Shown: piece by piece, positions 1-26,158 of the stretch
Layout: every line of letters begins with the position of its first letter
Numbering within the stretch: the first letter of the stretch is position 1
Assembly: GCA_037444445.1 (NCBI GenBank)
Contig: JBBIMK010000020.1
Span: 1-32,000, forward strand
Origin: a bacterium
GTDB lineage: Bacteria; UBP7; UBA6624; JBBIMK01
Length of the DNA: 32,000 nucleotides
Direction: 5' to 3'
Position numbers and translations under genes: made by a program
The notes under the pieces: model-generated
Seen by the model: the letters and a program-made list of their open reading frames with translations, nothing else
Told to the model about the DNA's origin: nothing
The model's database searches: none

Positions 1-1098
1 GACAGTGGCATGGCAGGTTTAACATTAGTTATGACGATACCAAATGATCTTTACATGCAGGGGAAGACTCAAGAAGCCATAGACTTCCTGAATAAGTTAA
101 TCCAACATCACATTGGCGGTATTAGCCAGTATCTGCCGATACAGAGCGAGACAGAGCTTGTTTCCTTTTTGAATCGCCCGGAAGTTGTAAAAACAATACA
201 GATGAGTGATGCCCGATTTACAAGTTACTGTGGCTACTATGATGTTCTGCAGATCCACGACTACCAGGGCTGGGAAACGCTCGAGCAAGTCTTCGATTGG
301 ATTCAGGCGAAGATGGATTCCGCTGGTTGCATCAAACCAATTGAGATGTGGGAATTGGGCTATGGATGGGACAACGCTTTGACTTACACCGTTGATGTCC
401 ATGCCAAAGGGGTTGCCAAGTCACTGGTCATCACGGTGGCCAAAGGTGCCGAGGCCGTCATCTACTTTCCCCTCACAGATAGAGGCAACTACGCACGGTC
501 GCTACTGACCGGAGAGTACGGGGTTCTTCCACCAGCCATTGCTTACAAAGTTGCTGTACAAAAACTGCGGGGTGTTACCGCTGCAGAGGAGCTTAATCTT
601 GGTGAAGGAGTTTGGGCATTTAAGTTTACAAAAGGTAGCCAAGAGCTTTATAGTGTTTGGAGCGATACTACAAGAACGATAAATCTACCTATCAATGCAA
701 TGAAAGTAATAGTAACAGATATCCAGGGAGATACAATGTATGCAAGTCCAGATAGTCTTATTATTGATTCAAGCCCAGTTTTTGTAGAACCGGTCACCGC
801 TACTTCAGTAGAAAATATAACGGAAGATGTTCCGCATGCAGTCCAGCTTTATCAAAACTATCCAAACCCATTCAACCCATCAACAACAATTCGCTTCTCC
901 ATTCCACAGCGAGAATTTGTAACGCTCAAAGTTTTTGATGTATTGGGCAGGGAAGTGGCAACGCTGGTAAATGGTGAATTAAGCCCCGGCAAGCATTCAA
1001 TTGTGTTTGATGCAAGGGATTTGGCAAGCGGTGTATATTTTTACCGATTGGCAGCGGGAACATTTGTTCAACAAAAGAAGATGGTAGTGATGAAATGA
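1..1098 (+). CDS. Secreted clan GH-A-like glycoside hydrolase paralog (5' end cut by the window edge) with a T9SS C-terminal sorting domain
   Basis: Frame 1 is open from base 1 (GAC AGT GGC ATG..), so the ATG at 10 is probably internal. 'YDVLQIHDYQGW..IEMWELGYGW..AKSLVITVAKGAEAVIYF' aligns by eye with the C-terminal half of the two downstream paralogs ('FDALDIHHWGH..QIWSCEHGTW..ARSLVRRFVYNLNHGLDKLFW'). The last ~80 aa (nt 850-1095: YQNYPNPFNPSTTIRFSIP..LKVFDVLGREV..GVYFYRL..KKMVVMK) look like a textbook Por/T9SS CTD (TIGR04183 type). Confidence 0.75.
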   Translation, partial: DSGMAGLTLVMTIPNDLYMQGKTQEAIDFLNKLIQHHIGGISQYLPIQSETELVSFLNRPEVVKTIQMSDARFTSYCGYYDVLQIHDYQGWETLEQVFDWIQAKMDSAGCIKPIEMWELGYGWDNALTYTVDVHAKGVAKSLVITVAKGAEAVIYFPLTDRGNYARSLLTGEYGVLPPAIAYKVAVQKLRGVTAAEELNLGEGVWAFKFTKGSQELYSVWSDTTRTINLPINAMKVIVTDIQGDTMYASPDSLIIDSSPVFVEPVTATSVENITEDVPHAVQLYQNYPNPFNPSTTIRFSIPQREFVTLKVFDVLGREVATLVNGELSPGKHSIVFDARDLASGVYFYRLAAGTFVQQKKMVVMK

Positions 1099-2669
1099 AA
1101 AGGTTATTTATACTGCTCGCAATTGCATTATGGATGGCGCATGGTGCTTATGCGACAACACGGGACAGCCTGATCACCTCAGAGTTTTTCGGCTTCGACT
1201 TCTGGAGTCGCGACGTTCAGTTCTGGCGCGAGGTTCTGAATCTAATGAACAAAGACACCGTCGGCTTTGGGTTGGTCGGCTACGGCGTCGGCTGGGAGAA
1301 AATCGAGCTGAGTCCACCAAAGCAAGGCGTGCATGCTTATGACTGGTCAGCCTTAGATGAACTGATTCGAGCAGTGGTAGAGTCTGGTCGAGCCCTCGAT
1401 TTTGAAATTCTTTCTCGCAGTAACTGGGCGACAATGGTCCCCTACCGAAATATGGACGAAGAGTGCTGCGCCATGAGCCCGCCGAAAGAAGATGCTGACT
1501 CTGATGTGGCCGCTTGGGGGATGACTGCCTATCAGGCGTGGAGCGATTTCGTGTTCAATCTGGTGGAACGCTACGACGGCGACGGCGTGGGCGATGCTCC
1601 GGGCATCACGCGTCCGGCTATCAAGTATCTCCAGTTGGGGAATGAACCCGAAGCCCCCAACCATTTCATCAGGTATGGCGGCACACCCGAGCGTTACGCC
1701 CGCATGTTGGCCGTCATGTACGAGGCTGCCAAGCGGGCTAACCCCACCATCAAGGTGGTCCGGGGAAAGTCTAATCCCGGCCACATCTTCGACGATAACC
1801 CTGATGAGGCAACCCTGAGAGCACGAAGAGCGGGCTATCTGGATTTCCTCTCGACCAGCCTCAAGCTGAGCAAAGATCACTTTGACATCTTCGCCATCAA
1901 CTTCAACGACCATTACACAGGGCTTTTCCCGTTTGTCCGCTGGCTGAAGGCAGAGATGGAGAAGAACGGCTACACCAAGCCTTTTCTGGTGGGTGATGCG
2001 AGGACGACGCTCTATCCTCGTGATAATGACGACGCTGTTCACATTTTGCCTCCGCGTTATCCTCCTGGGTTCGTAGAAAGTTTGAGAGACCCGACCCATC
2101 CGCAGTACGCTGCCAACAAGAGACTCTATCATGCCGATGAAGTGCGCCAGAGCCTGCGCAAGATGCTCGTGGCGCTTGCCTCCGGACAGGAAGCCATTTC
2201 CCTGCAGCCAGTGATGGGGCCGGTCATCCATAAAAGGGCGCTCTGGCAAGATGCCGGGCTGCTGGATGCGCGCGTCTACCGGGCGACCGGAGACCTGCGC
2301 AAAGCGCGGAAGCCTGTCTATTACGCCACCAAGCAACTGATGGATGCTCTTCTCGGTGCGGACCAACAGGTGAAGATTCTCGGCTTGGGCAAGAACGTGT
2401 TCGCTTATCAAGTGCTCAAGAAGGGCAAGAAGCTCTTCTTCCTCTGGCACGAAGACCCCTTCAATGTGGACGCTCAGGGATTGGTGCGACGCAATCAGCA
2501 GGTGAAGGTTAACTTGAGTTCCTTTGTCTTAACCTCTCGGATCCGCGTCAAGCGTTTTGTGATGGAGTTAGATGCAAACTACGCCCCCATTTATCCCAGT
2601 GACCTCGTCGTGTCGGCAACTCAACTGGTGATAGACGAAACTCCGGTGCTGGTCGTTGAAGAGCCGTGA
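1095..2669 (+). CDS. Secreted clan GH-A (TIM-barrel) glycoside hydrolase-like protein
   Basis: Signal peptide MKRLFILLAIALWMAHGAYA. 'ERYDGDGVGDAPGITRPAIKYLQLGNEPE' carries the NEP acid/base motif typical of clan GH-A barrels. ATG 1095 overlaps the upstream TGA (ATGA). The gene is visibly GC-richer than the backbone. Confidence 0.75.
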   Translation: MKRLFILLAIALWMAHGAYATTRDSLITSEFFGFDFWSRDVQFWREVLNLMNKDTVGFGLVGYGVGWEKIELSPPKQGVHAYDWSALDELIRAVVESGRALDFEILSRSNWATMVPYRNMDEECCAMSPPKEDADSDVAAWGMTAYQAWSDFVFNLVERYDGDGVGDAPGITRPAIKYLQLGNEPEAPNHFIRYGGTPERYARMLAVMYEAAKRANPTIKVVRGKSNPGHIFDDNPDEATLRARRAGYLDFLSTSLKLSKDHFDIFAINFNDHYTGLFPFVRWLKAEMEKNGYTKPFLVGDARTTLYPRDNDDAVHILPPRYPPGFVESLRDPTHPQYAANKRLYHADEVRQSLRKMLVALASGQEAISLQPVMGPVIHKRALWQDAGLLDARVYRATGDLRKARKPVYYATKQLMDALLGADQQVKILGLGKNVFAYQVLKKGKKLFFLWHEDPFNVDAQGLVRRNQQVKVNLSSFVLTSRIRVKRFVMELDANYAPIYPSDLVVSATQLVIDETPVLVVEEP

Positions 2670-2737
2670 TATGCTTCGGGTATGGATAGCCACAAGTATG
2701 AATATACTTGTCGTAGATGTATAGGAGGCCGAGTAAT

Positions 2738-4238
2738 ATGAAAGCCAAGCTCATTCTTATCGTTGCAATCCTGCTGGCTGTGGCCATCGGCCTGAAGAGC
2801 GGAAGTCAGGGAGCCTCAGGCGAGGCCCTGACCTTCCTAAACAGTTTTCAACGTGCTGGGGTCGTCAACAAGGGCGACACCGTTTCGTTCGAGGATTCGG
2901 CGTTCGGAATCTTCGCTGCGTTCACCGCCAACGAGTTCGGTTACTTCAGCCGCCGAATGGGCTTTGACAACGACGCATACTGGACCTGGGCGGAAAACCA
3001 TATGCGGACGCTCGGGGCGCACTGGACGCGGAGCAACCTGCAGTTTGTCTGGGACCTTGTTGAACCCGAAATCGGTGCGGGCTACAACTGGGACAACCAG
3101 ATGCTGACCGACCCCATCGCGAAGCGCATCTACCGCGAGGGCAACGCCATTCACTGGCTCGCGGTGTTCCACGAAGGCGGGGGACCTGTCACGCCGCCGA
3201 TGCCCGCGCGCCGCGCACAGCACCCGCCCCTGCGCAACCCGCTGGACGACCCCGACCGTTACAGAGCCTTCGTTCGCGCCTCCGTGGAGCGCTACGACGG
3301 CGACGGAATCAACGACGCCGCCCCCGGCGTCCACATCAAATACTGGCAGGCGGGCAACGAAATACTGTTTTGGACAGCCTCCGGGCGCACAGCGCAAGAC
3401 TATGTGCGCTACTTTCGCCTCATCCGTGAAGCGGCGCGGGAGGCTGACCCCACCGCTAAATTCGTTCTCATCGCGCCCACCCAGGCTTTCACCGTTGACC
3501 CCTTCCTCGCCGAAGTCATTGACGCGCTCGCGACCGCCCGCGAGTTTGATGCCCTGGACATCCACCACTGGGGTCACGCGGGCAACTGGAAAATGACCGC
3601 CGTCCCGCTATACCGCCGCCTCCTTGACTCCAGGGGTCTCACCGCGGTTCAAATCTGGAGTTGCGAGCACGGAACCTGGAACGGCGCCCCATCTGCGCCG
3701 CCCCCGCAGTCCGAGCAAGACCAGGCGCGCTCCCTCGTCCGCCGCTTCGTCTACAACCTCAACCACGGCCTGGACAAACTCTTCTGGAATAATCTGATGG
3801 AGTGGCGCGACTTTTCCGGCGACCCCGCCAGCATCTTCAACTCAATGGGGCTGATGACCGACGGGCAAGGACCCGGCGAAGACCCCGCGCGTTTCCACAC
3901 CGAGCGTGTCGCCTACTGGGCCTACAAGATGCTCGCCTCAAAGATTGACGCCCGTTCGCGGCTCCCCTCGGCGCGATGCCCGAGTCACGCGCGAAGGACG
4001 AACTTACGGCTTCGCCTACCGGCGCAAAGACAACGGCAAGCCGTTCTATATTCTCTGGGCGGAGCCGTCCGCCGACGGCGCAGAAGTTTCCTTCACCGTC
4101 ACTGCGCCCTCCGTTTGGGTTACGAACCTCATCCCCGACCGATTTAGCAAAACCCTCTACCAGCGCACACTCTCCGCCGAAGATGGCAAGGTTACCTTGC
4201 CCCTTCCCATAGATCCCTTTCTCATAGAGGAAACCTGA
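2738..4238 (+). pseudogene. Frameshifted (or indel-error-interrupted) paralog of the GH-A-like hydrolase at 1095-2669
   Basis: AGGAGG at 2723-2728 precedes ATG 2738 and the signal peptide MKAKLILIVAILLAVAIG. 'ERYDGDGINDAAPGVHIKYWQAGNE' and 'IWSCEHGTW' are paralogous to the upstream gene. After ~3950 the frame-2 reading becomes Arg/Pro/Leu-rich nonsense (..KIDARSRLPSARCPSHARRTNLRLRLP..). Frame 3 instead gives 'GRTYGFAYRRKDNGKPFYILWAEP..KVTLPLPIDPFLIEET*', which matches the paralog C-terminus ('KNVFAYQVLKKGKKLFFLWHED..'). The net shift is +1, somewhere in ~3945-3995. Confidence 0.6.
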
Positions 4239-9123: not shown

Positions 9124-9198
9124 GGGGATGTAGCTCAGCGGTAGAGCGTCTGCTTTGCACGCAGAAGGCCGCGGGTTCAAGTCCCGCCATCTCCACCA
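9124..9198 (+). tRNA. tRNA-Ala (anticodon UGC), CCA encoded
   Basis: Folded by hand: acceptor GGGGATG/CATCTCC with the G3:U70 Ala identity pair; D arm GCTC-AGCGGTA-GAGC; anticodon arm TCTGC-TTTGCAC-GCAGA (TGC at positions 34-36); T arm GCGGG-TTCAAGT-CCCGC; discriminator A plus CCA. Confidence 0.95.
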
Positions 9199-17374: not shown

Positions 17375-17436
17375 TCATTATACCTGAAACCGTATTTTCA
17401 TAGTAAGATAAAATCAGGTGATAGGGGGTGGAGAAA

Positions 17437-20400
17437 ATGCGTTGGGGTGAAAAACGAGGATTTTTCTGGAGAATCTTCGGATTCACGCTCACTGCGATTC
17501 TCCTTACGAGAACAGAAGTTTTTGCATCTTCAGAGCCAGTTTATCATCAACTGACTGTTATGTTAAATCCTTCCAGGCACTGGTTGAGTGGCGCGGATAA
17601 AATTGTCCTGCCACGAGAAAGTCGCACTACCACCCGGTTCCGTCTGAATTCCGGACTGGATGTGAAAAAACTCCTGTTGGAAGGTGTGGATATGACGAAA
17701 AAAATAGTGAAACTGAATTCAGATAAAAGGTATATGGAATATCAGGTTCCCTTACCTCCAAAGGCATTGAAGGAAGACCTTCTTGCTCTGGAAGTCGTTT
17801 ATGAAGGAGAAATCTACGACCCGGTGAAATCGGATAAGGAACTGTCGTTTGTTATCGGCGACCGCACGACCGGCTTGATTGGTGAAGAAGGAATTTTTCT
17901 CACAGGTGAAACAGGATGGTATCCCCGATTTGACTATTCACTGGAGATTTACCGGCTACGAGCCAGGGTTCCCACTCCATGGGTGATTGTTTCTCAGGGT
18001 CAGGAAGTCAAGCAATCCCGAAGCGGTAAAAATCTGGAATATATCTTTTCATCAGATATTCCAGCAGATAGCCTGACGCTGGTGGGTGGAAAATATAAGG
18101 TTCATTCTCGCATGGCGGGCTCCGTTGCGGTCTCCACTTACTTTTTTGAGGAAGAGGAATCGCTTTCAGATTTATTCTTAAATAAAACAGCGGAATACCT
18201 GGAGAAATTCTCCGGGATTCTCACTCCGTATCCTTATAAAAAATTTGATATTGTAGAGAATTTCTTCACCACCGGGTATGGATTTCCATCCTTCACTTTA
18301 TTGGGGAGAGATGTGATTCGGATGGGGGAACGGGCATTACGCCCCGGATATTTAGACCATGAAATCGTGCACTGTTGGTTTGGAAATTATGTCTATTTTC
18401 CGCCAGGGGAAGGAAACTGGGTGGAAGGCTTGACCACTTACATTGCCAATTATTACACCCAGGAACTGGAAAGCCCTGAAAAGGCACGCGAATACCGCAA
18501 AGGTATCTCTCTCAAGTATTCTCTTCGCGTGTCGGAAAAAAAAGATTATCCGGTCCGAAAATTTGAGGGGAAAGAAGAGGATTATGAAAATGACATCGGC
18601 TACGGAAAGGCGAGCATGATTTTCCATCTTTTACGGGATATGACGGGGGATGAAGAGTTCTTTTATGCCTTGAGAGAATTCATTGGCCGATATGGCGGAA
18701 AATACGCCACCTGGGAAGAGATAAAAAAGGTCTTTGAGGAGTCTATGCGAGGAGAGATTCCCTGGTTCTTTCACCAATGGTTAGACCGTGCTGGCCTGCC
18801 TCAACTCCAGCTTCAGGATGTTCAACTAAAAAAAATAGGGAGCGAGGAAGAAGGTCAGTCGTCACACAGGGAATATCTCATTCAGGGCAAAATTGTTCAA
18901 GTCGGTGAACCCTATATTCTGCCCGTGACATTACGCATTCAATTGACCGGGGGGTATCAGGATTTTACCCTCTGGGTGGACAAACAGGAAGTTCCCTTTC
19001 AGTATTTCGTAAGGAGTAGGCCTGTGAAAGTGGAGTTGGACCCGGATTTTGTGATCCCTCGCAAAATCCCCGGGTCAGAAATCCCTCCCTCTTTGAATTT
19101 CACCCTTGAATCCGGGCCTTTGAAGATTGTTCTACCGGGGAAAATGAGTGAAAAAGCCAGAACTCAGTATCAGGCTATTGCTGAGCGTGCTCATCAATTT
19201 AAGGGGGGAGTGATTTCACAGGATTCGGAAATCTCAGAGGAAGGATTGGGAGACTTCTCATTTTTGGTTCTGGGCTCACCTTCAGAAAATACTTTTCTTC
19301 AGAAGATTTTACAGAAATATGCTGATGAACGAGTAAAACTGGAGGAGCGGGGATTTCAGATTCAGGGAAAATCCCACTCGGATGCCGGCGAGAGTGTGTT
19401 GATTTCTTTCAGAAATCCATCGGGTTCTCAGCACTCAATCACGGTGTATTACGGTCTTTCGGATGAAGCGATAGGGAAGGCCCGTCTGATTTTTTACTAC
19501 GGCTGGGAAAGCTGGGTAATCTTTCAAAACGGCACACCGGCGGAAAGAGGCACCTGGGAAGTTCTTTCACCCACAACTGACTTTACATTTTCATTTCAGC
19601 CCTCTCAAGAAATTAGCGGAGAAAATTTAGAAAAAACATTGAATAGTTTAACGGCTCCTGAAATGGAGGGTAGAATGGCAGGTTCACCGGGAGCAGAGAT
19701 AGCCGCTTCATTCATCCAAAATTTTTTGACGGAATCTCAACCGTTTCAAATCACGGTGAAAGACTTGGCACCGGATTCTTTGTTCAAAATTGGACGGAAG
19801 GGAAGCCTGCAGTCCATTCTATTTTATCCCTTCTATTTTTCACCGGAAACTGGAGATAGTCCTCTGGATTTCAACCGTCTCTTCTATGCAGGCTATGGAA
19901 GCGACACAAAGGATTTCAATAAAGATGCAGAGGGGGCGCTGGTTCTGATTGAGGATGGATTCCCTCCTGGTTCCGTTACTTCTATGGAAGACTCCCCGAA
20001 GGCTTTATTCAGCAAGATACGGAGGGCGCAGGAGCAAGGCGCTCAGGGTGTTCTGCTTTTACTGCCGGATACATCTACTACTTTTCCCTCGTCCATGATT
20101 TCTTTCCCATCCCGATTATCGCCCCCTGATGAGAATAAGCGAAGAGAAGAGGAAAGGGCTGGAGAGGGAAAGGATTTACGCCTGAAAGTGATCAGTGAGC
20201 ATTCTCGTATGCCCTCCCCTGATTTTCCACTTCAAATCCCGGTCTTGGCTGTGGAAAAAAAACGGATTCTGCCTGTGCTTCCTGCCCTGGTGAAGGGAGT
20301 GTTAAAAAATCGGGTTGCAGAATTGAAAATTCACTTTACCCGGGAATCAATTCCCTGTAAGAATTTGCTCGCAATACTGCCAGGGAGCGACCCTGAAAAG

Positions 20401-20994
20401 ACAAATGAATCTATTGTGATTGGGGCTCACTATGACCACCTGGGAATGAATAATCGGAAAGAACCCTATCCGGGGGCAGTGGATAATGCCTCCGGAATCG
20501 CCGCTCTGCTGGAACTGTATCGCTTATTTGTAGAAAACCCTGTAAAGCCGAAAAAATCCCTTATTTTCGTGGCGTTTGACGGAGAGGAATGGGGGCTTCA
20601 GGGCTCTTCCTATTTCACCGAAAATTTTCCTGACCTTTCAAAAGTGGCCCTCATGCTCAATATAGATTCCATTGCTGGAACTTCCGAGAAAAGCGTTTAT
20701 CTCATCGGTCAGTCTTATTTCCAGGATGTCGCCTATGCAATCAAGGAAAAGGCTTCACAGATGGGCTTTGAGATAAAAGAGGATATTGACCGTTATGCCT
20801 ATCAATTCGGAAGTGACTTCTACCCATTTTACTTGAAAAAGATTCCGGCGGTCGGTTTTTTTGACGCCAACTATCGGAGTATCCATAAAGTTACTGACAC
20901 GTTAGCCCGGGTCTCTCTGGAGAAACTGAAGCAACTTGTCCTTTTCTTTTATGAAATCATCTACGATTTTGCAAACGACCCCCTAACACAATAA
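17437..20994 (+). CDS. Secreted fusion peptidase: M1-like gluzincin domain plus PA domain plus M28 aminopeptidase domain
   Basis: The signal-like N-terminus is FFWRIFGFTLTAILLTRTEVFASS. HEIVH (18358-18372) with E 18 residues later (WVEGLTTY) gives the M1 HExxH-x18-E motif. The C-terminal third has M28 ligand motifs AHYDHLG, DNASGIAALLEL, FDGEEWGLQGS, LNIDSIA and IHKVTDT, with a PA-like insert (GALVLIEDG..AQGVLLLLPD). The ORF track starts at GTG 17428, but ATG 17437 has the better SD spacing. Confidence 0.85.
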   Translation: MRWGEKRGFFWRIFGFTLTAILLTRTEVFASSEPVYHQLTVMLNPSRHWLSGADKIVLPRESRTTTRFRLNSGLDVKKLLLEGVDMTKKIVKLNSDKRYMEYQVPLPPKALKEDLLALEVVYEGEIYDPVKSDKELSFVIGDRTTGLIGEEGIFLTGETGWYPRFDYSLEIYRLRARVPTPWVIVSQGQEVKQSRSGKNLEYIFSSDIPADSLTLVGGKYKVHSRMAGSVAVSTYFFEEEESLSDLFLNKTAEYLEKFSGILTPYPYKKFDIVENFFTTGYGFPSFTLLGRDVIRMGERALRPGYLDHEIVHCWFGNYVYFPPGEGNWVEGLTTYIANYYTQELESPEKAREYRKGISLKYSLRVSEKKDYPVRKFEGKEEDYENDIGYGKASMIFHLLRDMTGDEEFFYALREFIGRYGGKYATWEEIKKVFEESMRGEIPWFFHQWLDRAGLPQLQLQDVQLKKIGSEEEGQSSHREYLIQGKIVQVGEPYILPVTLRIQLTGGYQDFTLWVDKQEVPFQYFVRSRPVKVELDPDFVIPRKIPGSEIPPSLNFTLESGPLKIVLPGKMSEKARTQYQAIAERAHQFKGGVISQDSEISEEGLGDFSFLVLGSPSENTFLQKILQKYADERVKLEERGFQIQGKSHSDAGESVLISFRNPSGSQHSITVYYGLSDEAIGKARLIFYYGWESWVIFQNGTPAERGTWEVLSPTTDFTFSFQPSQEISGENLEKTLNSLTAPEMEGRMAGSPGAEIAASFIQNFLTESQPFQITVKDLAPDSLFKIGRKGSLQSILFYPFYFSPETGDSPLDFNRLFYAGYGSDTKDFNKDAEGALVLIEDGFPPGSVTSMEDSPKALFSKIRRAQEQGAQGVLLLLPDTSTTFPSSMISFPSRLSPPDENKRREEERAGEGKDLRLKVISEHSRMPSPDFPLQIPVLAVEKKRILPVLPALVKGVLKNRVAELKIHFTRESIPCKNLLAILPGSDPEKTNESIVIGAHYDHLGMNNRKEPYPGAVDNASGIAALLELYRLFVENPVKPKKSLIFVAFDGEEWGLQGSSYFTENFPDLSKVALMLNIDSIAGTSEKSVYLIGQSYFQDVAYAIKEKASQMGFEIKEDIDRYAYQFGSDFYPFYLKKIPAVGFFDANYRSIHKVTDTLARVSLEKLKQLVLFFYEIIYDFANDPLTQ

Positions 20995-20997
20995 AAC

Positions 20998-22029
20998 ATG
21001 GAGGAGAAGATGGAGGAAGAAATAAAAGAAATAGTGAAAGAATGGGGTGTGTCCGGGTATGAGAACCCGATTCGCACTTTGCTGTATCACAAGGTGGAGG
21101 ATATGGGCAAGATTCGGGTGGATCCGGTGGGAAATTTGTGGCTGACTCTCGGGAAAGGGGAAAAGAGGGTGGCATTCCTGGCACACCTGGATGAGTTGGG
21201 GCTGGTGGTTTCCAGATTGACCTCCCAGGGAACAGCGAAATTTAAGAAAGTAGGCGGGATAGATGACCGAACTTTACCCGGTCGGCATGTGGAACTTCTC
21301 ACGAGCAAAAATCGGGTTCTGGAAGGGGTGATTGGGCTTCCCCCTCCCCATCTTATGGTGGACCCACCTTCCGAGATGAATAAGGTTATTCCCTGGCAGG
21401 ATATGGAGGTGTACTTTGGAGTGAACAGTAAAAAAGCCTTAACAGAGTTAGGGGTTTCCGTTCTTGACCCCTTGCGGGTCAAGAAAGATTTCTTCTCGCT
21501 ACCTAACGAGCAGATTGTCTGCCGGGGCATGGATGACCGGATAGGGTGTTATATCCTGCTGGAATTGGCGCGAAAAACCTCAAAATGGAAGTTAAACTTT
21601 CAATTGGATATAGTCTGGACGGTTCAGGAGGAGTACGGGCTACGAGGTGCTCGGGCTGTGGCACGAAATACTTTTGATGAAGTGTATGTTCTGGACACGA
21701 TTTCTTCCACTCAGGGCTGTGGGGCTTCCATCCCTTATACGGAAATTTTTTTGGGGCAGGGGCCGGTTGTCCGCTTCATAGACCGTGCTGGAATTTCTTC
21801 CCCAGCGCTGATGGAAAAAGTGAAGAAGGTAGCGAAAAAGGCCCAAATTCCTTTACAGCGTGCAGTGAGTGGGGGCACCACCGATGCTACGGCTGTATTT
21901 GAAGGGGGTTCCCCCGCAATCTCCATTGGCATTCCCATAGCCTATACGCACAGTGCAGTAGAAATTTGCAGTTTGAAAGATGTAAAAAATACGCTGCGCC
22001 TTTGTGGACGCTTGCTGGAAACTTTTTAA
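20998..22029 (+). CDS. M42 family peptidase (FrvX/CelM-type aminopeptidase)
   Basis: 'AFLAHLDELGLVV', 'CRGMDDRIGC', 'VQEEYGLRGA' and 'GGTTDA' are M42 metal-ligand blocks. It starts 3 nt after the upstream stop. Confidence 0.85.
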   Translation: MEEKMEEEIKEIVKEWGVSGYENPIRTLLYHKVEDMGKIRVDPVGNLWLTLGKGEKRVAFLAHLDELGLVVSRLTSQGTAKFKKVGGIDDRTLPGRHVELLTSKNRVLEGVIGLPPPHLMVDPPSEMNKVIPWQDMEVYFGVNSKKALTELGVSVLDPLRVKKDFFSLPNEQIVCRGMDDRIGCYILLELARKTSKWKLNFQLDIVWTVQEEYGLRGARAVARNTFDEVYVLDTISSTQGCGASIPYTEIFLGQGPVVRFIDRAGISSPALMEKVKKVAKKAQIPLQRAVSGGTTDATAVFEGGSPAISIGIPIAYTHSAVEICSLKDVKNTLRLCGRLLETF

Positions 22030-22045
22030 CTTGTCTTCAAGTTTT
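22028..22045 (+). terminator. Weak hairpin plus T-run after the M42 gene
   Basis: AACTTG-tctt-CAAGTT is followed by TT(C). The stem is AT-rich, only 6 bp, and overlaps the 3' coding end of the convergent gene. Confidence 0.2.
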
Positions 22046-23188
22046 CGGTGTGCTGGTGGGTATAGGAGAGTAGCGCAGGAGGCAACCGATACAGATTTGC
22101 TTAAGGAAGGCGGTGTCATATCGGATGGGGCGAATCACAGCCCCCTGGGCAAAGGCTTTTTCAACGGCCTCTGCCACAACATCCGGAGTTAAAACAGTAG
22201 GAGACCCACAATACTGGCAGTTCCCAAAATTCGTGAACAGGGCTTTACAATTTTTGCAAATATAACCGTTGAGATGGTAGTCCTCTGAGAAGAGAAGGGT
22301 GTGGATGTTGGCTCCATTCAGGGCTTGAAGCACAGGGGCAAGGCCTATTCGCCCTTGCCTGCCCGCGGAAGATTCCTGCTTCAGGGATTCTACGAGGCTT
22401 CTTTCCTCTGCCTCCTCAAAACGGCGAATAAGAGGTTCACACCGCTGGAGAATTTCCTCTTTCGATTCATCTCGGTCTACCCGGATGACTCCGATAATTC
22501 TGTTGGATATGGAGGATGGGATGGCGATTTTGAGAGCACTGACCACATCCTCACTCCCCCCGAGGATGAGATGATGACAGAAGCGTTTCTGAAGCAGGGA
22601 AGAAAGTTTTTCAGCCACTTTACGCGCATGGTGCATCAGGTGAGCAGAGATATGCCGAGCCATACGCCCTTCCTCTCTACCCTCATACCCCCCTGCTTTT
22701 ACCTTCTTCGGTACTTCACTTTCCATTTCTTCAAGGGATTCAATATCACCCAAAAAAAGTTCATAGATGGAGGCGCCCTTTCGGTCAATCACTCCCACCA
22801 GATAACGCCGGTAAGCCTGAAGTAAAGTTAGAAGAGGGGAGACATAAGGCGTAGAATTTACGACCAGGCGATTCGGAATATAGGCTCTTAATGGGTAAGT
22901 CTTCCAGAGGCCAGCTTTGCTGGAGGAAAAAATTGCCACGGACCGATGGGGAAAATTCAGAGGCATCTGATTCAAAAAAGTTTGAATCTGGCGTAAATCT
23001 TTTTCTACCAAAGGTTTCACAGATTCCTGCACCTGGGTTTTGATGAGGTTCTTTAAGACAGTGCGGTATTCACCTCTGGGGTAAGTTTGATGGTCTACTC
23101 CGAGATAAACGCTTACGATAGGAGTAGAACTTTTCAGCTGTGATAACTCTCTAACTTGCTGTAGTGTGAGCAATGCCCATCCCTCCAA
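22037..23188 (-). CDS. Archaeo-eukaryotic release factor (eRF1/aRF1/Pelota)-like protein, bacterial 'baeRF'-type, with a zinc ribbon
   Basis: 'PIVSVYLGVD' near the N-terminus. The block 'VIDRKGASIYEL..VPKKVKAGGYEG..ARKVAEKL' parallels the aRF1 M-domain block around GGQ. The C-terminus '..GCLLRY' resembles aRF1 '..AILRY'. CKNC-x12-CQYC lies at nt 22208-22258. There is no ATG start: either TTG at 23188 or TTG at 23173 preceded by GGAGGG. Confidence 0.6.
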   Translation of the reverse strand: MEGWALLTLQQVRELSQLKSSTPIVSVYLGVDHQTYPRGEYRTVLKNLIKTQVQESVKPLVEKDLRQIQTFLNQMPLNFPHRSVAIFSSSKAGLWKTYPLRAYIPNRLVVNSTPYVSPLLTLLQAYRRYLVGVIDRKGASIYELFLGDIESLEEMESEVPKKVKAGGYEGREEGRMARHISAHLMHHARKVAEKLSSLLQKRFCHHLILGGSEDVVSALKIAIPSSISNRIIGVIRVDRDESKEEILQRCEPLIRRFEEAEERSLVESLKQESSAGRQGRIGLAPVLQALNGANIHTLLFSEDYHLNGYICKNCKALFTNFGNCQYCGSPTVLTPDVVAEAVEKAFAQGAVIRPIRYDTAFLKQICIGCLLRYSPIPTSTPKT

Positions 23189-23383
23189 TTTAGAAAAAGA
23201 GGGAGTGGAGTTTGAAGCCCCCCTTCAAGGAGGAGGTGGGGGGAGAGAAGGCCAGGCTTCATACCACTCCCTTCATATAATTATAACTCAGAAATAAAAA
23301 TGGTAAAAGTCAGGAAATAATTGGATGGACATACGATAGATTTCTTATTAGAGCAGTAAAGAAGTATGATAGACTAAAAGCGG

Positions 23384-26158
23384 ATGAACAGGGGGATGGT
23401 GGTCTTAATGTGTTGCATTTATATGGCAGAAAGTGCAGGAGTAAGCGTGAAGCATGCTTTCGGATTTGAGGGGCTTGTTCTGTCGCTCAAAGAAGGAAAA
23501 TGGAAATTCGCAATAGATGAGAAGAGAGAAGGAATTGTGAAAGGATGGTTTAAACCGGAGCACGATGTCTCTAACTGGGATGAGATTCAGGTGGGGCGTT
23601 CATGGGAGGGACAGGGATATAACTATGATGGTTGGGCGTGGTACCGTAGAGACTTTCTTCTCTCAAAGGAATGGGCAGGGGAGAAAGTTTTTGTCGTATT
23701 GGGCGGTGTAGACGATGAATATGAAGTTTATGTAAATGGAGAAAAGGCTGGAGGCAATGGAAGTTTTGAACAGGGTATTTCGGTATGGGATACCTATACT
23801 TATGTGGAAGTTACTCCCTGGATTCACCGGGAGAAAACCAATATTCTGGTCATCTGGGTCAATGACTGGGGAGGATATGGAGGATTACGGAAAGAACCAG
23901 TGGCAGTGGTAAGTGACCCGAGAATTTTGATGCCACCGGAAGATTTTATCAAAATATATGCCCGGGAACACACCGATTTGCCCCTTCCTTACTGGGCAAC
24001 CGGAAAGGGAATCGCATGGACGATGACCGGGGTGGACGAAGGGGTGGAAGAAATTCTGTTAAGCCATGACGGGGCTATTGGAGCCACATCCTTTCCATTC
24101 ACCATTTCTGGGTGGATTTTAAGCCGCACAACCGGGAAACTGTGGGCACCAGAAAATCTTCAATCATCCCAGCCTTCCGCCTCATTGAAAAACGGATATC
24201 TCCCTCTCCTTCAATACGCTTTTCTTGCCGATGGTTTCCGAGTGGAATCCGAAGTCTTTGCTAATTCTTACGGCGACCCGGATGAGGATGGAGTGGCATA
24301 TATCCTTTACAGAATCGCGAATAATTCTAAAGAAAACCAGGAAGCGGAGTTTCTTCTCGTCATCCGACCTTATCTGGTGAATGGGAAAATCGGCCAGGTG
24401 ACCTCCGTGAGGTTTGAAGGTAATTCCGTGTTCATCAACGACAATTTCTTATTGTTGTGCGAGGATGTGCCATCGGGTTCTCTGACTTCATCTCTCTTTG
24501 AATCCGGAGATATTTCACAGGATATTTTCACGAAAAAGCCCTCGGTCTTCATCACCGATGAGCGTGGGTTAGGCATGCTTGCACTGCAGTATCCGTTGAA
24601 CACCAAACCCGGGCAGGTATTTACTTTTCACTTTCGGTTGCCCCTCCGGCCCCGAGAAGAATTCCCTCTGGCGTGGTTGCGTTCTATGCGACTCCATTCC
24701 TTTGCAGGTGAAGAAGCAACAGTTTCTGCTTACTGGGAGAAGTTACTGGAGAACATCCCCTTCCAATTCCCTGATGAATCTCTAAATCATGCGTATAGGG
24801 CTTCTATCGCTAATATCTTAATTGCTATGGACAAAGGGATGCTCCATCCCGGCCCCCTGGCTTACAGTTTATTCTGGTACAGGGATTCTGCTTATATGAT
24901 AACTGCCCTGTTGCAATCTGGATTCGCTCCACGGGTCAAAAATATGCTTCCCCATTTTATGAAAGCCCAGCTGGAGTCCGGGGAATTTCCCTCCATATTT
25001 GATTTGAATTACAAAAATGTGGGGTGGCAGGAATGGGACGCCCAGGGGCAGGCTCTTTACTCTATGGCCCAGTATTACCGTTTCACGAGAGATAAGGAGT
25101 TCATACAAGAGCACTGGCAAACTCTCGTGAAGGGCGCAGAATTTTTAAGGAAAATTCGGAAAGAGCGATTGAAACCCGAATTTGAAGCAACAGAACGATA
25201 CGGAATCCTGCCTCCTTCAGTTTCCGCAGAAGACCTGGGACCCGGAGACTGGCATCATTATTGGGATGATTTCTGGGCTATCCGAGGGTTGAAAGATGGA
25301 GCATTCCTGGCAAGAGAATTGAACGATGATGCCACCAGCCAGTGGATGGAGAAGGAAGCACAAGAACTCCTCCACTGGACAAAGCATTCTTACTCGCTCA
25401 TCATGCAAAAACAGGGAATAGACTGGATAGCCAATGGTCCGGAAGATTGGACTGGCTCTTCCATGGCAAGAGGCACAGGAGCGGGATTATGGCCCGGGGG
25501 CGCGCTTTCACCCGGTGACCCGGTGGTGCGAACCTCTTTCCAGCGCTATTATGAAAAATGGATACAGCCGTTCGGTGGAGCCTATCTTCATCAGGGGCGT
25601 TTCTGGCCCTACGGGCTTGAACTGGCCCTTGCGTATGTGATGCTGGGGCGGAGAGAAATTGCTTCTGAAATCCTGAAGTGGCATCTGGACCATCAAACAT
25701 TCCCCGGCACCTTTTCCTGGGCGGAACAGATTGACCCCAAAACCTTCAAGTTTCTATCCGGAGATATGCCCCACTGCTGGGTGGCGGCTGACCTTCTTAA
25801 CCTCCTGCGCGGAATGCTGGTGTATGAGGAGGAGAATCGTCTGGTGTTAATGGCAGGCATTCCACGAGTATGGCTGGATTCTCACCAGACGATTCAACTC
25901 CGTGATGCCCCCACCTACTTCGGCAAACTTTCCCTTGCCCTTTCAGTAAATCGTGAACAGGAAGAACAACGCATCCGGATAGCAATCACTGGCGATGCCC
26001 GTCCAGAAGCAGGATTTCACTTCCGTCTGCCCATACTACCTGAAGAAGTTCAATCTATCCTCGTGGAGAATGAGCCCATACATCTTCAAGCAGATGGTTC
26101 CTTCACAATTCCTGGCGCTGCTCATCAGATTCTGATAACTTTGAACCTTCCACGATAA
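23384..26158 (+). CDS. Glycoside hydrolase-like protein: N-terminal galactose-binding jelly-roll plus (alpha/alpha)6 six-hairpin domain (GH15-like)
   Basis: 'WDEIQVGRSWEGQGYNYDGWAWYRRDF..VVLGGVDDEYEVYVNGEKAG' resembles the GH2-type sugar-binding domain. 'LFWYRDSAYMITALLQSGF', 'EWDAQGQALYSMAQYY' and 'HYWDDFWAIRGL' are six-hairpin glucoamylase-like blocks. The exact start is uncertain (ATG at 23384, 23396 or 23426). Confidence 0.7.
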   Translation: MNRGMVVLMCCIYMAESAGVSVKHAFGFEGLVLSLKEGKWKFAIDEKREGIVKGWFKPEHDVSNWDEIQVGRSWEGQGYNYDGWAWYRRDFLLSKEWAGEKVFVVLGGVDDEYEVYVNGEKAGGNGSFEQGISVWDTYTYVEVTPWIHREKTNILVIWVNDWGGYGGLRKEPVAVVSDPRILMPPEDFIKIYAREHTDLPLPYWATGKGIAWTMTGVDEGVEEILLSHDGAIGATSFPFTISGWILSRTTGKLWAPENLQSSQPSASLKNGYLPLLQYAFLADGFRVESEVFANSYGDPDEDGVAYILYRIANNSKENQEAEFLLVIRPYLVNGKIGQVTSVRFEGNSVFINDNFLLLCEDVPSGSLTSSLFESGDISQDIFTKKPSVFITDERGLGMLALQYPLNTKPGQVFTFHFRLPLRPREEFPLAWLRSMRLHSFAGEEATVSAYWEKLLENIPFQFPDESLNHAYRASIANILIAMDKGMLHPGPLAYSLFWYRDSAYMITALLQSGFAPRVKNMLPHFMKAQLESGEFPSIFDLNYKNVGWQEWDAQGQALYSMAQYYRFTRDKEFIQEHWQTLVKGAEFLRKIRKERLKPEFEATERYGILPPSVSAEDLGPGDWHHYWDDFWAIRGLKDGAFLARELNDDATSQWMEKEAQELLHWTKHSYSLIMQKQGIDWIANGPEDWTGSSMARGTGAGLWPGGALSPGDPVVRTSFQRYYEKWIQPFGGAYLHQGRFWPYGLELALAYVMLGRREIASEILKWHLDHQTFPGTFSWAEQIDPKTFKFLSGDMPHCWVAADLLNLLRGMLVYEEENRLVLMAGIPRVWLDSHQTIQLRDAPTYFGKLSLALSVNREQEEQRIRIAITGDARPEAGFHFRLPILPEEVQSILVENEPIHLQADGSFTIPGAAHQILITLNLPR

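What the first reader, a model, noticed from the sequence alone, without database searches (positions are those of the whole stretch)
22037..23188. Bacterial eRF1/aRF1-like protein whose GGQ position reads GGY, with a CxxC..CxxC zinc ribbon
Bacteria terminate translation with RF1/RF2, so proteins with the archaeo-eukaryotic release-factor fold are unusual in them. Such families have been catalogued by comparative genomics as 'baeRF', but as far as I know none has been characterised experimentally.

This ORF follows the eRF1 layout by eye. It has the N-terminal 'PIVSVYL' segment. Its M-domain-like block 'VPKKVKAGGYEG..ARKVAEKL' lines up with aRF1 'vPkKhkqGGQS..f.kkVae'. It ends in '..LLRY' as aRF1 does.

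The catalytic Gln of GGQ is Tyr here (codons at 22685-22693; the plus strand reads ATACCCCCC). That argues against classical peptidyl-tRNA hydrolysis. It suggests a Pelota/Dom34-like ribosome-rescue, sensing or conflict role instead.

The gene also lacks an ATG start and stands alone between convergent and divergent neighbours.
Basis: partly seen in the sequence, partly recalled or inferred. Interest (0 to 1): 0.7.

Follow-up and report, generated by a model that had tools for sequence, protein, structure and literature searches.

The report
Gln-less, zinc-ribbon Balon/aRF1-like ribosome factor
This gene encodes a bacterial copy of the archaeal/eukaryotic release-factor fold that has lost the catalytic glutamine and the stop-codon motif; it falls in the same protein family as the "Balon" ribosome hibernation factor described in 2024, so it is an uncharacterised variant of a known kind, not a new kind of system.

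Summary
A 378-aa gene lies at 22037..23173 on the minus strand. It starts with TTG, probably the second TTG, which sits behind a GGAGGG Shine-Dalgarno. It encodes a three-domain aeRF1-fold protein with GGY at 22685..22693 and a CxxC-x9-CxxC zinc ribbon.

It passes Pfam baeRF_family10 (91 bits against a cut-off of 27). The AlphaFold model (pLDDT 89.6) best matches ribosome-bound Balon Msmeg1130 (E 2e-23, TM 0.77), ahead of aRF1, eRF1 and Pelota.

Among the top 190 cluster representatives there are two loop types:
- 93 carry GGWSQ, with an invariant Gln.
- 81, including this protein, carry a loop three residues longer: GG[WFY]xG[YL]EE[RK]RIERHIxxH...H, with Glu where the others have Gln.

Both types keep the zinc ribbon.

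There is no NIKS, no GGQ, no conserved gene partner and no defence or phage link. dN/dS against an 85%-identical orthologue is 0.15.

The most likely function is a non-hydrolytic blocker of the ribosomal A site, like Balon. A variant catalytic role is not excluded. It scores far below the curated Balon subfamily thresholds.

The parts
22037..23173 (-). Probable CDS (378 aa plus stop) of the baeRF family-10 / Balon-like protein. The maximal ORF extends to the TTG at 23188.
   Evidence: ORF list. Sequence. The identical 378-aa database protein P0001. Pfam PF18854 at 91.2 bits. dN/dS 0.148 against the orthologue in L001.
23181..23186 (-). Shine-Dalgarno GGAGGG, 7 nt upstream of the TTG at 23171..23173. 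It overlaps the first TTG, so it argues for the second start.
   Evidence: Read directly from the sequence.
23280..23307 (-). Sigma-70-like promoter candidate, TTTACC-16-TATAAT, in the divergent intergenic region. Weak evidence only.
   Evidence: Consensus scan. One site was found against 1.7 expected from shuffles, so this is not above chance.
22814..23173 (-). N-terminal domain (aa 1-120), homologous to the aRF1 N domain. It has no NIKS, and the segment that aligns with NIKS is shortened. It ends in the family's most conserved motif, PYxxPL (here PYVSPL).
   Evidence: Model secondary structure. Profile alignment to aRF1 3agk across the N domain. Nine-residue gap relative to subgroup relatives. 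No NIK string.
22364..22813 (-). Middle domain (aa 121-270), the eRF1_2/RNase H-like domain matched by baeRF_family10.
   Evidence: Pfam match over aa 114-250 in 383-aa numbering. Model.
22619..22714 (-). Tip loop plus the start of the following helix (aa 154-185): VPKKVKAGGYEGREEGRMARHISAHLMHHARK. The GGY codons are at 22685..22693. E168 (22670..22672) sits in the column that is Gln in 93/93 short-loop relatives. H174, H178 and H182 form a His ladder.
   Evidence: Loop census. HMMER alignments to aRF1/eRF1. Lower pLDDT (62-73) in this loop.
22070..22363 (-). C-terminal domain (aa 271-368), eRF1_3/Pelota-like, ending in IGCLLRY.
   Evidence: Model. Alignments to Msmeg1130 and aRF1 C domains.
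22208..22258 (-). Zinc ribbon CKNC-x9-CQYC (C306, C309, C319, C322), inserted in the C domain at the site of the aRF1 zinc ribbon and of Balon's EF-Tu-binding beta-hairpin.
   Evidence: Cys conservation. Aligned to Msmeg1130 'VGTVGADGSLYADGEIAPHSH' and to aRF1 'CPNDH...CSDC'. pLDDT 92-94.
22040..22069 (-). Ten-residue C-terminal tail, SPIPTSTPKT, after LLRY. Among aligned relatives, a similar tail is seen only in this protein and its 85% orthologue; a few others have unrelated extensions. Low model confidence.
   Evidence: Alignments. pLDDT below 50 for residues 374-377.
21996..22011 (-). Terminator-like hairpin just downstream of the stop codon, inside the 3' end of the convergent M42 peptidase gene. 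Weak evidence only.
   Evidence: Consensus scan. Two sites were found against 2.1 expected.

Best explanation
The gene encodes a three-domain tRNA-mimic of the aeRF1 superfamily, in Pfam baeRF_family10. That is the family of the mycobacterial Balon homologue Msmeg1130.

I infer that it binds the A site of the 70S ribosome without reading a codon and without releasing the peptide. It would act as a Balon-like translation silencer and ribosome protector during stress or dormancy.

**Shown here.**
- The fold and the family membership.
- Loss of NIKS and of the loop Gln.
- Purifying selection on the gene.
- A conserved zinc ribbon at the site where Balon carries its EF-Tu-binding hairpin.
- A strongly conserved loop and helix motif, GG[WFY]xG..E.R..RH...H...H.

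**Inferred, not shown.**
- The N domain sits at the decoding centre.
- The GG-aromatic loop and the basic/His helix contact 23S rRNA near the peptidyl-transferase centre (A2602 region). The aromatic residue may stack on a nucleotide.
- The zinc-ribbon C domain engages EF-Tu.
For: **Family and fold.**
- Pfam PF18854 scores 91.2 bits against a cut-off of 27.1.
- Msmeg1130 itself scores 124.7 bits on PF18854.
- The best PDB sequence hit is Msmeg1130, over the full length. With the subgroup profile it reaches E = 2e-23.
- The AF2 model has pLDDT 89.6 and pTM 0.79.
- Foldseek hits, in order: Msmeg1130 on the ribosome (E 2e-23, TM 0.77), P. urativorans Balon (TM 0.69), Rv2629 (TM 0.68), aRF1 (TM 0.57), Pelota (E about 1e-9).

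**Missing release-factor motifs.** There is no GGQ, GGxSQ or NIKS, and no Gln in residues 120-194.

**Basis for the Balon analogy.**
- Balon homologues bind the A site, lack NIKS and GGQ, and inhibit translation about 15-fold in vitro (PMC10901736).
- Burroughs and Aravind predicted that Gln-less baeRFs are non-catalytic A-site inhibitors (PMC6514570).

**Other support.**
- The protein is basic, pI 9.2.
- dN/dS is 0.148.
- One subgroup homologue has Hsp20 immediately upstream (L004). That is a context reported for Balon genes.
Against: - Scores against the three curated NCBIfam Balon subfamilies are far below their cut-offs: 84 vs 480, 57 vs 320 and 54.5 vs 330. aRF1 scores about the same (56.7).
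- Balon's hallmark beta-hairpin is an intact zinc ribbon here.
- The protein has no His-Pro dipeptide anywhere.
- Msmeg1130's longer N-domain loop is absent.
- Typical Gln-less baeRF loops are degenerate. The loop of this subgroup is length-constrained and highly conserved, which could indicate chemistry and not mere blocking.
- GG, the part of GGQ most critical for backbone geometry, is retained.
- No RaiA/HPF or stress gene lies next to this gene.
- No expression or binding data exist.
Confidence: 0.55

Rival explanations
1. It is a catalytically active alternative release or rescue factor. The conserved GG-aromatic-x-G loop with Glu168 and the following His residues would reach the peptidyl-transferase centre. 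There it would either promote peptidyl-tRNA hydrolysis or, like Vms1/ANKZF1, cleave the tRNA 3' end on stalled ribosomes, independently of a stop codon.
For: - The sister group within the same Pfam family keeps an invariant Gln (GGWSQ, 93/93). Burroughs and Aravind singled out family 10 as potentially active.
- The query's subgroup retains GG (G162 in 66/81) and has a length-constrained loop. It conserves G165 (69/81), E168 (62/81), R173 (69/81), H174 (60/81) and H182 (76/81). That pattern is more typical of functional loops than of degenerate ones.
- From general knowledge: the backbone amide at the Gln position contributes to release-factor catalysis, and some Gln substitutions retain partial activity in vitro.
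Against: - The side chain universally conserved in active release factors is absent.
- The loop is 3 residues longer.
- The closest solved structures are non-catalytic Balons.
- There is no RQC-type or RtcB-type neighbourhood.
- The acVLRF1 Pfam model scores below threshold, 21.6 vs 27.1.
Confidence: 0.22
2. It is a Pelota/Dom34-like non-catalytic rescue factor. It would recognise stalled or empty-A-site ribosomes and promote subunit splitting or recycling together with a GTPase (EF-Tu or another), and would not store ribosomes.
For: - It has the same three-domain architecture and no Gln.
- Pelota is recovered structurally (E 1e-9 to 1e-6).
Burroughs and Aravind also consider Dom34-like relief of stalled ribosomes.
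Against: - Pelota matches are far weaker than Balon or aRF1 matches, with TM at most 0.45.
- No Pelota family HMM was hit.
- Bacteria lack ABCE1, the splitting partner.
- No partner gene is conserved next to the gene in five contexts examined.
Confidence: 0.15
3. It is a decaying or non-functional remnant of a horizontally acquired aRF1 gene, or a mis-called ORF.
For: Non-ATG start. Isolated gene. Loss of the canonical motifs.
Against: - dN/dS is 0.148 with dS 0.51 against an 85% orthologue in conserved synteny.
- A good Shine-Dalgarno precedes the second TTG.
- The fold is predicted with high confidence.
- Four zinc ligands and subgroup-specific motifs are conserved.
- There are thousands of homologues: 6948 at E<1e-3.
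Confidence: 0.02

Closest known systems
Balon-family ribosome hibernation factors, especially Msmeg1130 (PDB 8V9J/8V9L), also Rv2629 (8V9K) and P. urativorans Balon (8RD8) - Helena-Bueno et al. 2024, PMC10901736
   Same: - Same Pfam family as Msmeg1130, PF18854.
- Collinear over the full length, with few indels.
- Best structural match, TM 0.77 to the ribosome-bound conformation.
- Length within the reported 360-420 aa range.
- Lacks NIKS and GGQ.
   Different: - Only about 18% identity.
- Far below the NCBIfam equivalog cut-offs.
- Keeps an intact Cys4 zinc ribbon where Balon has a beta-hairpin.
- Its tip loop is a conserved GG-aromatic motif, not Balon's Gln/Arg-rich lasso ('FGQAPQERAGQMREQRQARE').
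- No His-Pro dipeptide anywhere.
- The N-domain loop is 7 residues shorter than in Msmeg1130.
- No RaiA or stress-gene neighbour.
Zinc-ribbon baeRF family-10 proteins with GGWSQ (GGxSQ), variously annotated 'VLRF1 family aeRF1-type release factor', 'Vms1/Ankzf1 family peptidyl-tRNA hydrolase' or 'peptide chain release factor subunit 1' (Burroughs and Aravind 2019, PMC6514570)
   Same: - Same Pfam family.
- Same three domains.
- Same Cys4 zinc ribbon.
- Same PYxRPL, GG-aromatic and C-terminal ALLRY motifs.
- 21-30% identity.
   Different: - They have a short loop with an invariant Gln and an Arg-rich helix (RYERRR).
- This protein belongs to the other subgroup. Its loop is 3 residues longer, Glu replaces Gln, and His replaces Arg (RIERHIxxH...H).
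Archaeal aRF1 / eukaryotic eRF1 (TIGR03676; PDB 4AF1, 3AGK, 1DT9)
   Same: - Homologous N, M and C domains.
- 'VPxKxKxGG' aligns with this protein's 'VPKKVKAGG'.
- Zinc-binding insert at the same C-domain site (4AF1).
- C-terminal 'ILRY'.
   Different: - No GGQ Gln and no NIKS.
- Scores 56.7 bits against a cut-off of 234.7.
- Bacterial host, where RF1/RF2 are the standard release factors.
Pelota/Dom34
   Same: Three-domain aeRF1-superfamily tRNA mimic that lacks the catalytic Gln.
   Different: Much weaker structural and sequence similarity. The two belong to different clades of the superfamily according to PMC6514570.

Membership tests
aeRF1 superfamily (three-domain release-factor fold) | N, M (RNase H-like eRF1_2) and C (eRF1_3/Pelota-like) domains in that order | tested here: met
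   AF2 model with pLDDT 89.6. Full-length Foldseek matches to Balon, aRF1 and eRF1 at E 1e-23 to 1e-14. Profile alignments covering all three domains.
Pfam PF18854 baeRF_family10 | Score above the gathering threshold of the family HMM | tested here: met
   91.2 bits against 27.1, E = 9.4e-26, best of all Pfam families.
Pfam PF18854 baeRF_family10 | Well-conserved catalytic-type Gln in the loop, the trait highlighted for family 10 by Burroughs and Aravind (GGxSQ in relatives) | tested here: not met
   The loop reads GGYEGREEG. Glu168 sits in the column that is Gln in 93/93 short-loop relatives. There is no Gln in residues 120-194.
Classical aRF1/eRF1 release factor | GGQ motif | tested here: not met
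   No GGQ anywhere in the protein. GG is aligned to the GG of GGQ but is followed by Y.
Classical aRF1/eRF1 release factor | NIKS stop-codon recognition motif | tested here: not met
   No NIK string. The segment that aligns to aRF1 'DNIKLK' is a shortened helix-loop.
Classical aRF1/eRF1 release factor | TIGR03676 equivalog score | tested here: not met
   56.7 bits against a cut-off of 234.7.
Balon ribosome hibernation factors | aeRF1 fold lacking both NIKS and GGQ | tested here: met
   Definition from PMC10901736.
Balon ribosome hibernation factors | Membership of a curated Balon subfamily (NCBIfam NF052288, NF052289, NF052287) | tested here: not met
   84 vs 480, 57.2 vs 320 and 54.5 vs 330 bits. 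Relatives of both loop types behave the same way.
Balon ribosome hibernation factors | HP motif / N-terminal insertion that binds the decoding centre | tested here: inconclusive
   No His-Pro dipeptide in the protein. Msmeg1130 'FIHPL' aligns with the query's 'YVSPL', and Msmeg1130 has 7 extra residues in the beta1-alpha2 loop. The papers give no residue numbers for the motif, so the exact position could not be checked.
Balon ribosome hibernation factors | EF-Tu-binding beta-hairpin insertion in the C domain | tested here: not met
   An insert of the same length sits at the same site, but it is an intact Cys4 zinc ribbon. Whether it binds EF-Tu is untested.
Balon ribosome hibernation factors | Lasso loop around A2602 and the bL27 trap | not testable with these tools
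   This needs coordinates of a ribosome complex. Only the sequence difference of the loop is visible.
Balon ribosome hibernation factors | A-site binding, translation inhibition and induction by stress | not testable with these tools
   Experimental properties.
Balon ribosome hibernation factors | Frequent linkage to RaiA/HPF or stress-response genes | tested here: not met
   The window and its syntenic relatives carry peptidases, a GH-like protein and Amj. Among four other subgroup loci, one has Hsp20 upstream and one has a CBS-pair gene downstream.
Pelota/Dom34 | Closest structural and sequence relationship to Pelota | tested here: not met
   Pelota hits at E 1e-9 to 1e-5 with TM 0.25-0.45, well behind Balon and aRF1. 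Pelota was reached only at 42 bits with the subgroup profile.
VLRF1 / Vms1-ANKZF1 clade | Family HMM match and a GxuQ/GGxSQ Gln | tested here: not met
   Pfam acVLRF1 scores 21.6 bits against 27.1. NCBIfam acVLRF1 was not hit. The Gln is absent.

The most novel reading that the evidence does not exclude
The long-loop, zinc-ribbon subgroup may be a functionally distinct class of bacterial A-site factor, neither a Balon-type passive blocker nor a Gln-dependent hydrolase. The subgroup has at least 81 clusters at 50% identity and is found in a Chlamydiae (Chlamydiota) MAG, a Candidatus Desulfaltia MAG and a Candidatus Binatia MAG, among other uncultured bacteria. Its motif is GG[WFY]xG[YL]EE[RK]RIERHIxxHxxxH. 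The invariant-like Glu and the His ladder could carry out a new chemistry at the peptidyl-transferase centre, such as Glu/His-assisted peptidyl-tRNA hydrolysis or CCA-end cleavage. Alternatively they could make ribosome binding switchable by pH or metal.
Probability: 0.15. Interest if true: 0.75.

Novelty: new variant of a known kind. Interest (0 to 1): 0.4.

Why it matters
Balon showed that bacteria reuse the archaeo-eukaryotic release-factor fold to silence ribosomes. Only three proteins have been studied, all with degenerate loops and a degenerate zinc ribbon.

This protein represents a large, unstudied branch of the same Pfam family. It keeps the ancestral zinc ribbon and has replaced the Gln loop with a different motif that is just as strongly conserved.

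Comparing it with its GGWSQ sister group would give a natural experiment on how a release factor turns into a hibernation or rescue factor. It would also show which loop features decide between peptide release and ribosome storage.

For the window itself the practical result is a better annotation: 'baeRF family-10 / Balon-like ribosome-associated factor, Gln-less', not 'peptide chain release factor'.

Tried and rejected
1. **Conflict or defence role.** PADLOC gave no hit. BFVD gave only giant-virus eRF1. There is no compositional anomaly at the gene: GC 0.47 against about 0.48-0.50. Rejected.
2. **A conserved operon partner.** The window, L001/L002 (85% orthologue, same synteny), L003, L004, L005 and L033 share no neighbour. 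Only single cases of Hsp20 and of a CBS-pair gene were seen.
3. **Organism identity.**
   - Exact-sequence look-ups of 11 window proteins returned no names or accessions.
   - The contig look-up for P0001 found nothing.
   - The GTDB scan did not recover the window's own species.
   - Only a T9SS sorting domain hints at the FCB group.
4. **Genome scan with the 17-sequence alignment.** It was rerun with 4 sequences.
5. **Locating Balon's HP motif.** Neither paper version gives residue numbers.
6. **An intact GGQ elsewhere in the protein.** None exists.
7. **Promoter and terminator scans.** Sites were found, but no more than expected by chance.
8. **Tree placement.** The NJ tree is crude (BLOSUM distances, midpoint root). 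The placement of Msmeg1130 in it is not trustworthy, so I do not use it.
Full report
**1. Observation**

- The window has an ORF at 22037..23188 on the minus strand, 383 aa with a TTG start.
- The first TTG overlaps a GGAGGG Shine-Dalgarno at 23181..23186. A second in-frame TTG at 23171..23173 lies 7 nt behind it.
- The identical database protein P0001 is 378 aa and starts at the second TTG. I therefore use 22037..23173 and 378-aa numbering throughout.
- GGY is encoded at 22685..22693, and the four cysteines of CKNC-x9-CQYC at 22208..22258.
- The gene is convergent with an M42 aminopeptidase gene; the two stop codons are 7 nt apart. It is divergent from a 924-aa GH2_N-domain gene.

**2. Fold and family**

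Sequence searches:
- Pfam gives baeRF_family10 (PF18854) at 91.2 bits against a cut-off of 27.1. It gives weaker baeRF2 and baeRF3 hits, and sub-threshold hits to eRF1_2 and acVLRF1.
- NCBIfam gives only sub-threshold hits: MSMEG_1130-family ribosome hibernation factor 84 vs 480, Rv2629 family 57 vs 320, aRF1_eRF1 56.7 vs 234.7, AOC03_06830 family 54.5 vs 330.
- The only PDB sequence hit of note is Balon Msmeg1130, over the full length.

Structure:
- An AlphaFold2 model built on 40 homologues is confident, with pLDDT 89.6 and pTM 0.79.

| Foldseek hit | E-value | TM |
|---|---|---|
| Msmeg1130 on the ribosome | 2e-23 | 0.77 |
| aRF1 4AF1 | 6e-20 | 0.57 |
| P. urativorans Balon | 1e-19 | 0.69 |
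| Rv2629 | 2e-17 | 0.68 |
| eRF1 entries | about 1e-16 | not noted |
| Pelota/Dom34 | 1e-9 to 1e-5 | not noted |

- The Msmeg1130 sequence, rebuilt from the printed alignment, scores 124.7 bits on PF18854 and passes no other family.
- So the window protein shares its Pfam family with an experimentally validated ribosome-binding, translation-inhibiting protein (PMC10901736).

**3. The GGQ position in context**

- A profile search of 1.84 billion cluster representatives found 6948 relatives at E<1e-3 and 1202 at E<1e-30.
- I aligned the top representatives with the word-index hits and the query, 190 sequences in all. The tip loop falls into two main types.
- The short type has 93 sequences. It reads (K/V)GGWS-Q(Q/K)RYERRR, with Gln in 93/93.
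  - This is the GGxSQ pattern. Burroughs and Aravind noted a conserved Gln for family 10 and thought the family possibly catalytic (PMC6514570).
- The long type has 81 sequences, including the query. Its loop is three residues longer: V-P-x-[KR]-V-[KR]-x-[GA]-G-[WFY]-x-G-[YL]-E-E-[RK]-R-I-E-R-H-I-x-x-H-x-x-x-H.
- Counts for the long type:

| Position | Sequences with that residue (of 81) |
|---|---|
| P155 | 67 |
| G162 | 66 |
| G165 | 69 |
| E168 | 62 |
| R173 | 69 |
| H174 | 60 |
| H182 | 76 |

- Glu168 occupies the Gln column.
- A further 16 sequences have a short loop without Gln.
  - In an ungapped HMMER alignment, that aromatic does fall on the Gln of GGQ.
  - With the subgroup profile, HMMER instead treats 'W-x-G' as an insertion after GG.
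  - Under either alignment there is no Gln. The protein has none between residues 120 and 194.
- In a crude NJ tree, 75 of the 81 long-loop sequences form one clade of 83. The query, its 85% orthologue P0002 and P0045 (38% identical) sit on an early branch of it.
- The loss of Gln is thus a subgroup trait under selection, not a private mutation.

**4. Other anatomy**

- The Cys4 zinc ribbon is conserved in both loop types, at 53-62 of 62 and 90-92 of 93 per position.
- The ribbon aligns with Msmeg1130 'VGTVGADGSLYADGEIAPHSH', which is Balon's EF-Tu-binding beta-hairpin. It also aligns with the Cys/His-bearing insert of Halobacterium aRF1.
  - This fits the earlier proposal that the two-strand insert of many baeRFs is a degenerate zinc ribbon.
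- The N domain is homologous to that of aRF1 but has no NIKS. Relative to its own subgroup, the query even has a 9-residue deletion in the aligned segment.
- The family-wide motif PYxRPL (here PYVSPL) aligns with the YxCxxxF region of eRF1 and with Msmeg1130 'PFIHPL'.
- The protein is basic, pI 9.2.
- Against the orthologue in L001, dN/dS is 0.148 with dS 0.51. In residues 150-185 there are 14 synonymous and 3 non-synonymous differences. The gene is clearly functional.

**5. Context**

- The window encodes:
  - TldD/PmbA peptidases and a metallo-beta-lactamase-fold protein;
  - a cofactor-independent phosphoglycerate mutase;
  - an M1+M28 fusion peptidase and an M42 peptidase;
  - a large GH2_N protein and Amj;
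  - an ABC-2 exporter, UbiE and a GGDEF protein.
- The same arrangement surrounds the 85% orthologue in two JGI metagenome contigs.
- Other long-loop genes have different neighbours:
  - A Chlamydiae MAG has a CBS-pair protein downstream.
  - An uncultured bacterium has Hsp20 directly upstream.
  - A Desulfaltia MAG has a convergent AcrB.
  - An ENA contig has nothing suggestive.
- There is no conserved partner.
- PADLOC finds nothing, and viral structure matches are only giant-virus eRF1.
- The source organism could not be named. A T9SS sorting domain at 10..1098 suggests the FCB group.

**6. Mechanism**

- The best-supported reading is a Balon-like, non-hydrolytic occupant of the A site.
  - It would be a tRNA-shaped protein that enters the A site without reading a codon, because NIKS is absent.
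  - It would place its GG-aromatic loop and basic/His helix near the peptidyl-transferase centre without releasing the peptide.
  - It would use the zinc-ribbon C domain where Balon uses its hairpin to touch EF-Tu.
- What is shown: the fold, the family, the motif losses, the conservation and the selection.
- What is inferred: ribosome binding, the A-site location, the EF-Tu contact and the physiological role. These rest on homology to Msmeg1130, Rv2629 and Balon (PMC10901736) and on the earlier prediction for Gln-less baeRFs (PMC6514570).
- I put this reading at about 0.55.
- The main rival, at about 0.22, is that the strongly conserved, length-constrained loop (GG retained; Glu and His conserved) carries out some chemistry.
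- A Pelota-like splitting role gets about 0.15, and a pseudogene about 0.02.

**7. Comparison and novelty**

- The protein is a member of Pfam baeRF_family10 and of the broad 'Balon homologue' set as defined by Helena-Bueno et al.: bacterial aeRF1 homologues of 360-420 aa lacking GGQ and NIKS.
- It is not a member of any of the three curated Balon subfamilies.
- It differs from solved Balons in the loop, in having a zinc ribbon and not a hairpin, and probably in the N-domain insertion.
- It differs from its GGWSQ sisters in lacking Gln.
- I found no paper that characterises this zinc-ribbon, long-loop subgroup.
- I therefore class it as a new variant of a known kind, with interest 0.4. A specialist would now expect Balon-like proteins in bacteria. 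The subgroup's conserved replacement loop is a worthwhile but not startling lead.

Noticed in passing
window 22628..22654 (H174, H178, H182) and relatives: In the long-loop subgroup, the helix after the GG loop carries a His ladder at i, i+4, i+8: H174 in 60/81, H178 in 43/81, H182 in 76/81. The Gln-bearing sister group has Arg or Tyr at these positions (RRRD...Y). This could mean pH- or metal-dependent rRNA binding, or catalysis.
   Followed up: partly
L004 5257..5709 and L003 7255..7770: In an uncultured-bacterium genome, an Hsp20 gene sits directly upstream of a long-loop homologue on the same strand. In a Chlamydiae MAG, a CBS-pair protein follows the homologue. Both are single cases, not a conserved pattern.
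   Followed up: partly
window 17428..20994 (+) and L002 4596..8109: An 1188-aa protein fuses an M1-type peptidase domain to a C-terminal M28 peptidase domain, next to an M42 aminopeptidase. In the related contig L002 the same region is called as two genes (863 + 311 aa). This suggests a fusion or fission event, or a frameshift.
   Followed up: no
window 1095..4147 (+): GC is 0.598 in 2001..4000 against about 0.48 elsewhere. Two adjacent large ORFs (524 and 476 aa) have no Pfam hit. They look like secreted glycosidase-like paralogues. The second ends in an odd Arg-rich tail that may be an over-extended or frameshifted ORF.
   Followed up: no
window 23384..26158 (+): In this 924-aa protein only an N-terminal GH2 sugar-binding domain is recognised; about 780 aa remain unassigned. 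Its weak PADLOC hit reflects only that sugar-binding domain.
   Followed up: no
window 9124..9198 (+): tRNA-Ala (anticodon TGC), in a gene-poor stretch between the GGDEF gene and a glycosyl-hydrolase-like gene with lower GC (0.436).
   Followed up: no
window 10..1098 (+): This protein has a C-terminal T9SS sorting domain (Por_Secre_tail). That hints that the unnamed source organism belongs to the FCB group.
   Followed up: no
relatives P0003, P0005, P0006, P0213, P0216, P0219, P0221: A third family-10 subtype, found in Thermodesulfobacteriota MAGs among others, has a tip loop about 20 residues longer ('...TKFQSQEGKFKQRVS..GGGEVPHG(F/Y)GEYGFQR...') and lacks the zinc-ribbon cysteines. One is annotated 'host attachment protein'.
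   Followed up: no
annotation of relatives: Public names for proteins of this one family are inconsistent: 'peptide chain release factor 1', 'VLRF1 family aeRF1-type release factor', 'Vms1/Ankzf1 family peptidyl-tRNA hydrolase', 'host attachment protein', 'hypothetical protein'. The PDB entry for P. urativorans Balon is still labelled 'Methyl-accepting chemotaxis protein'.
   Followed up: no
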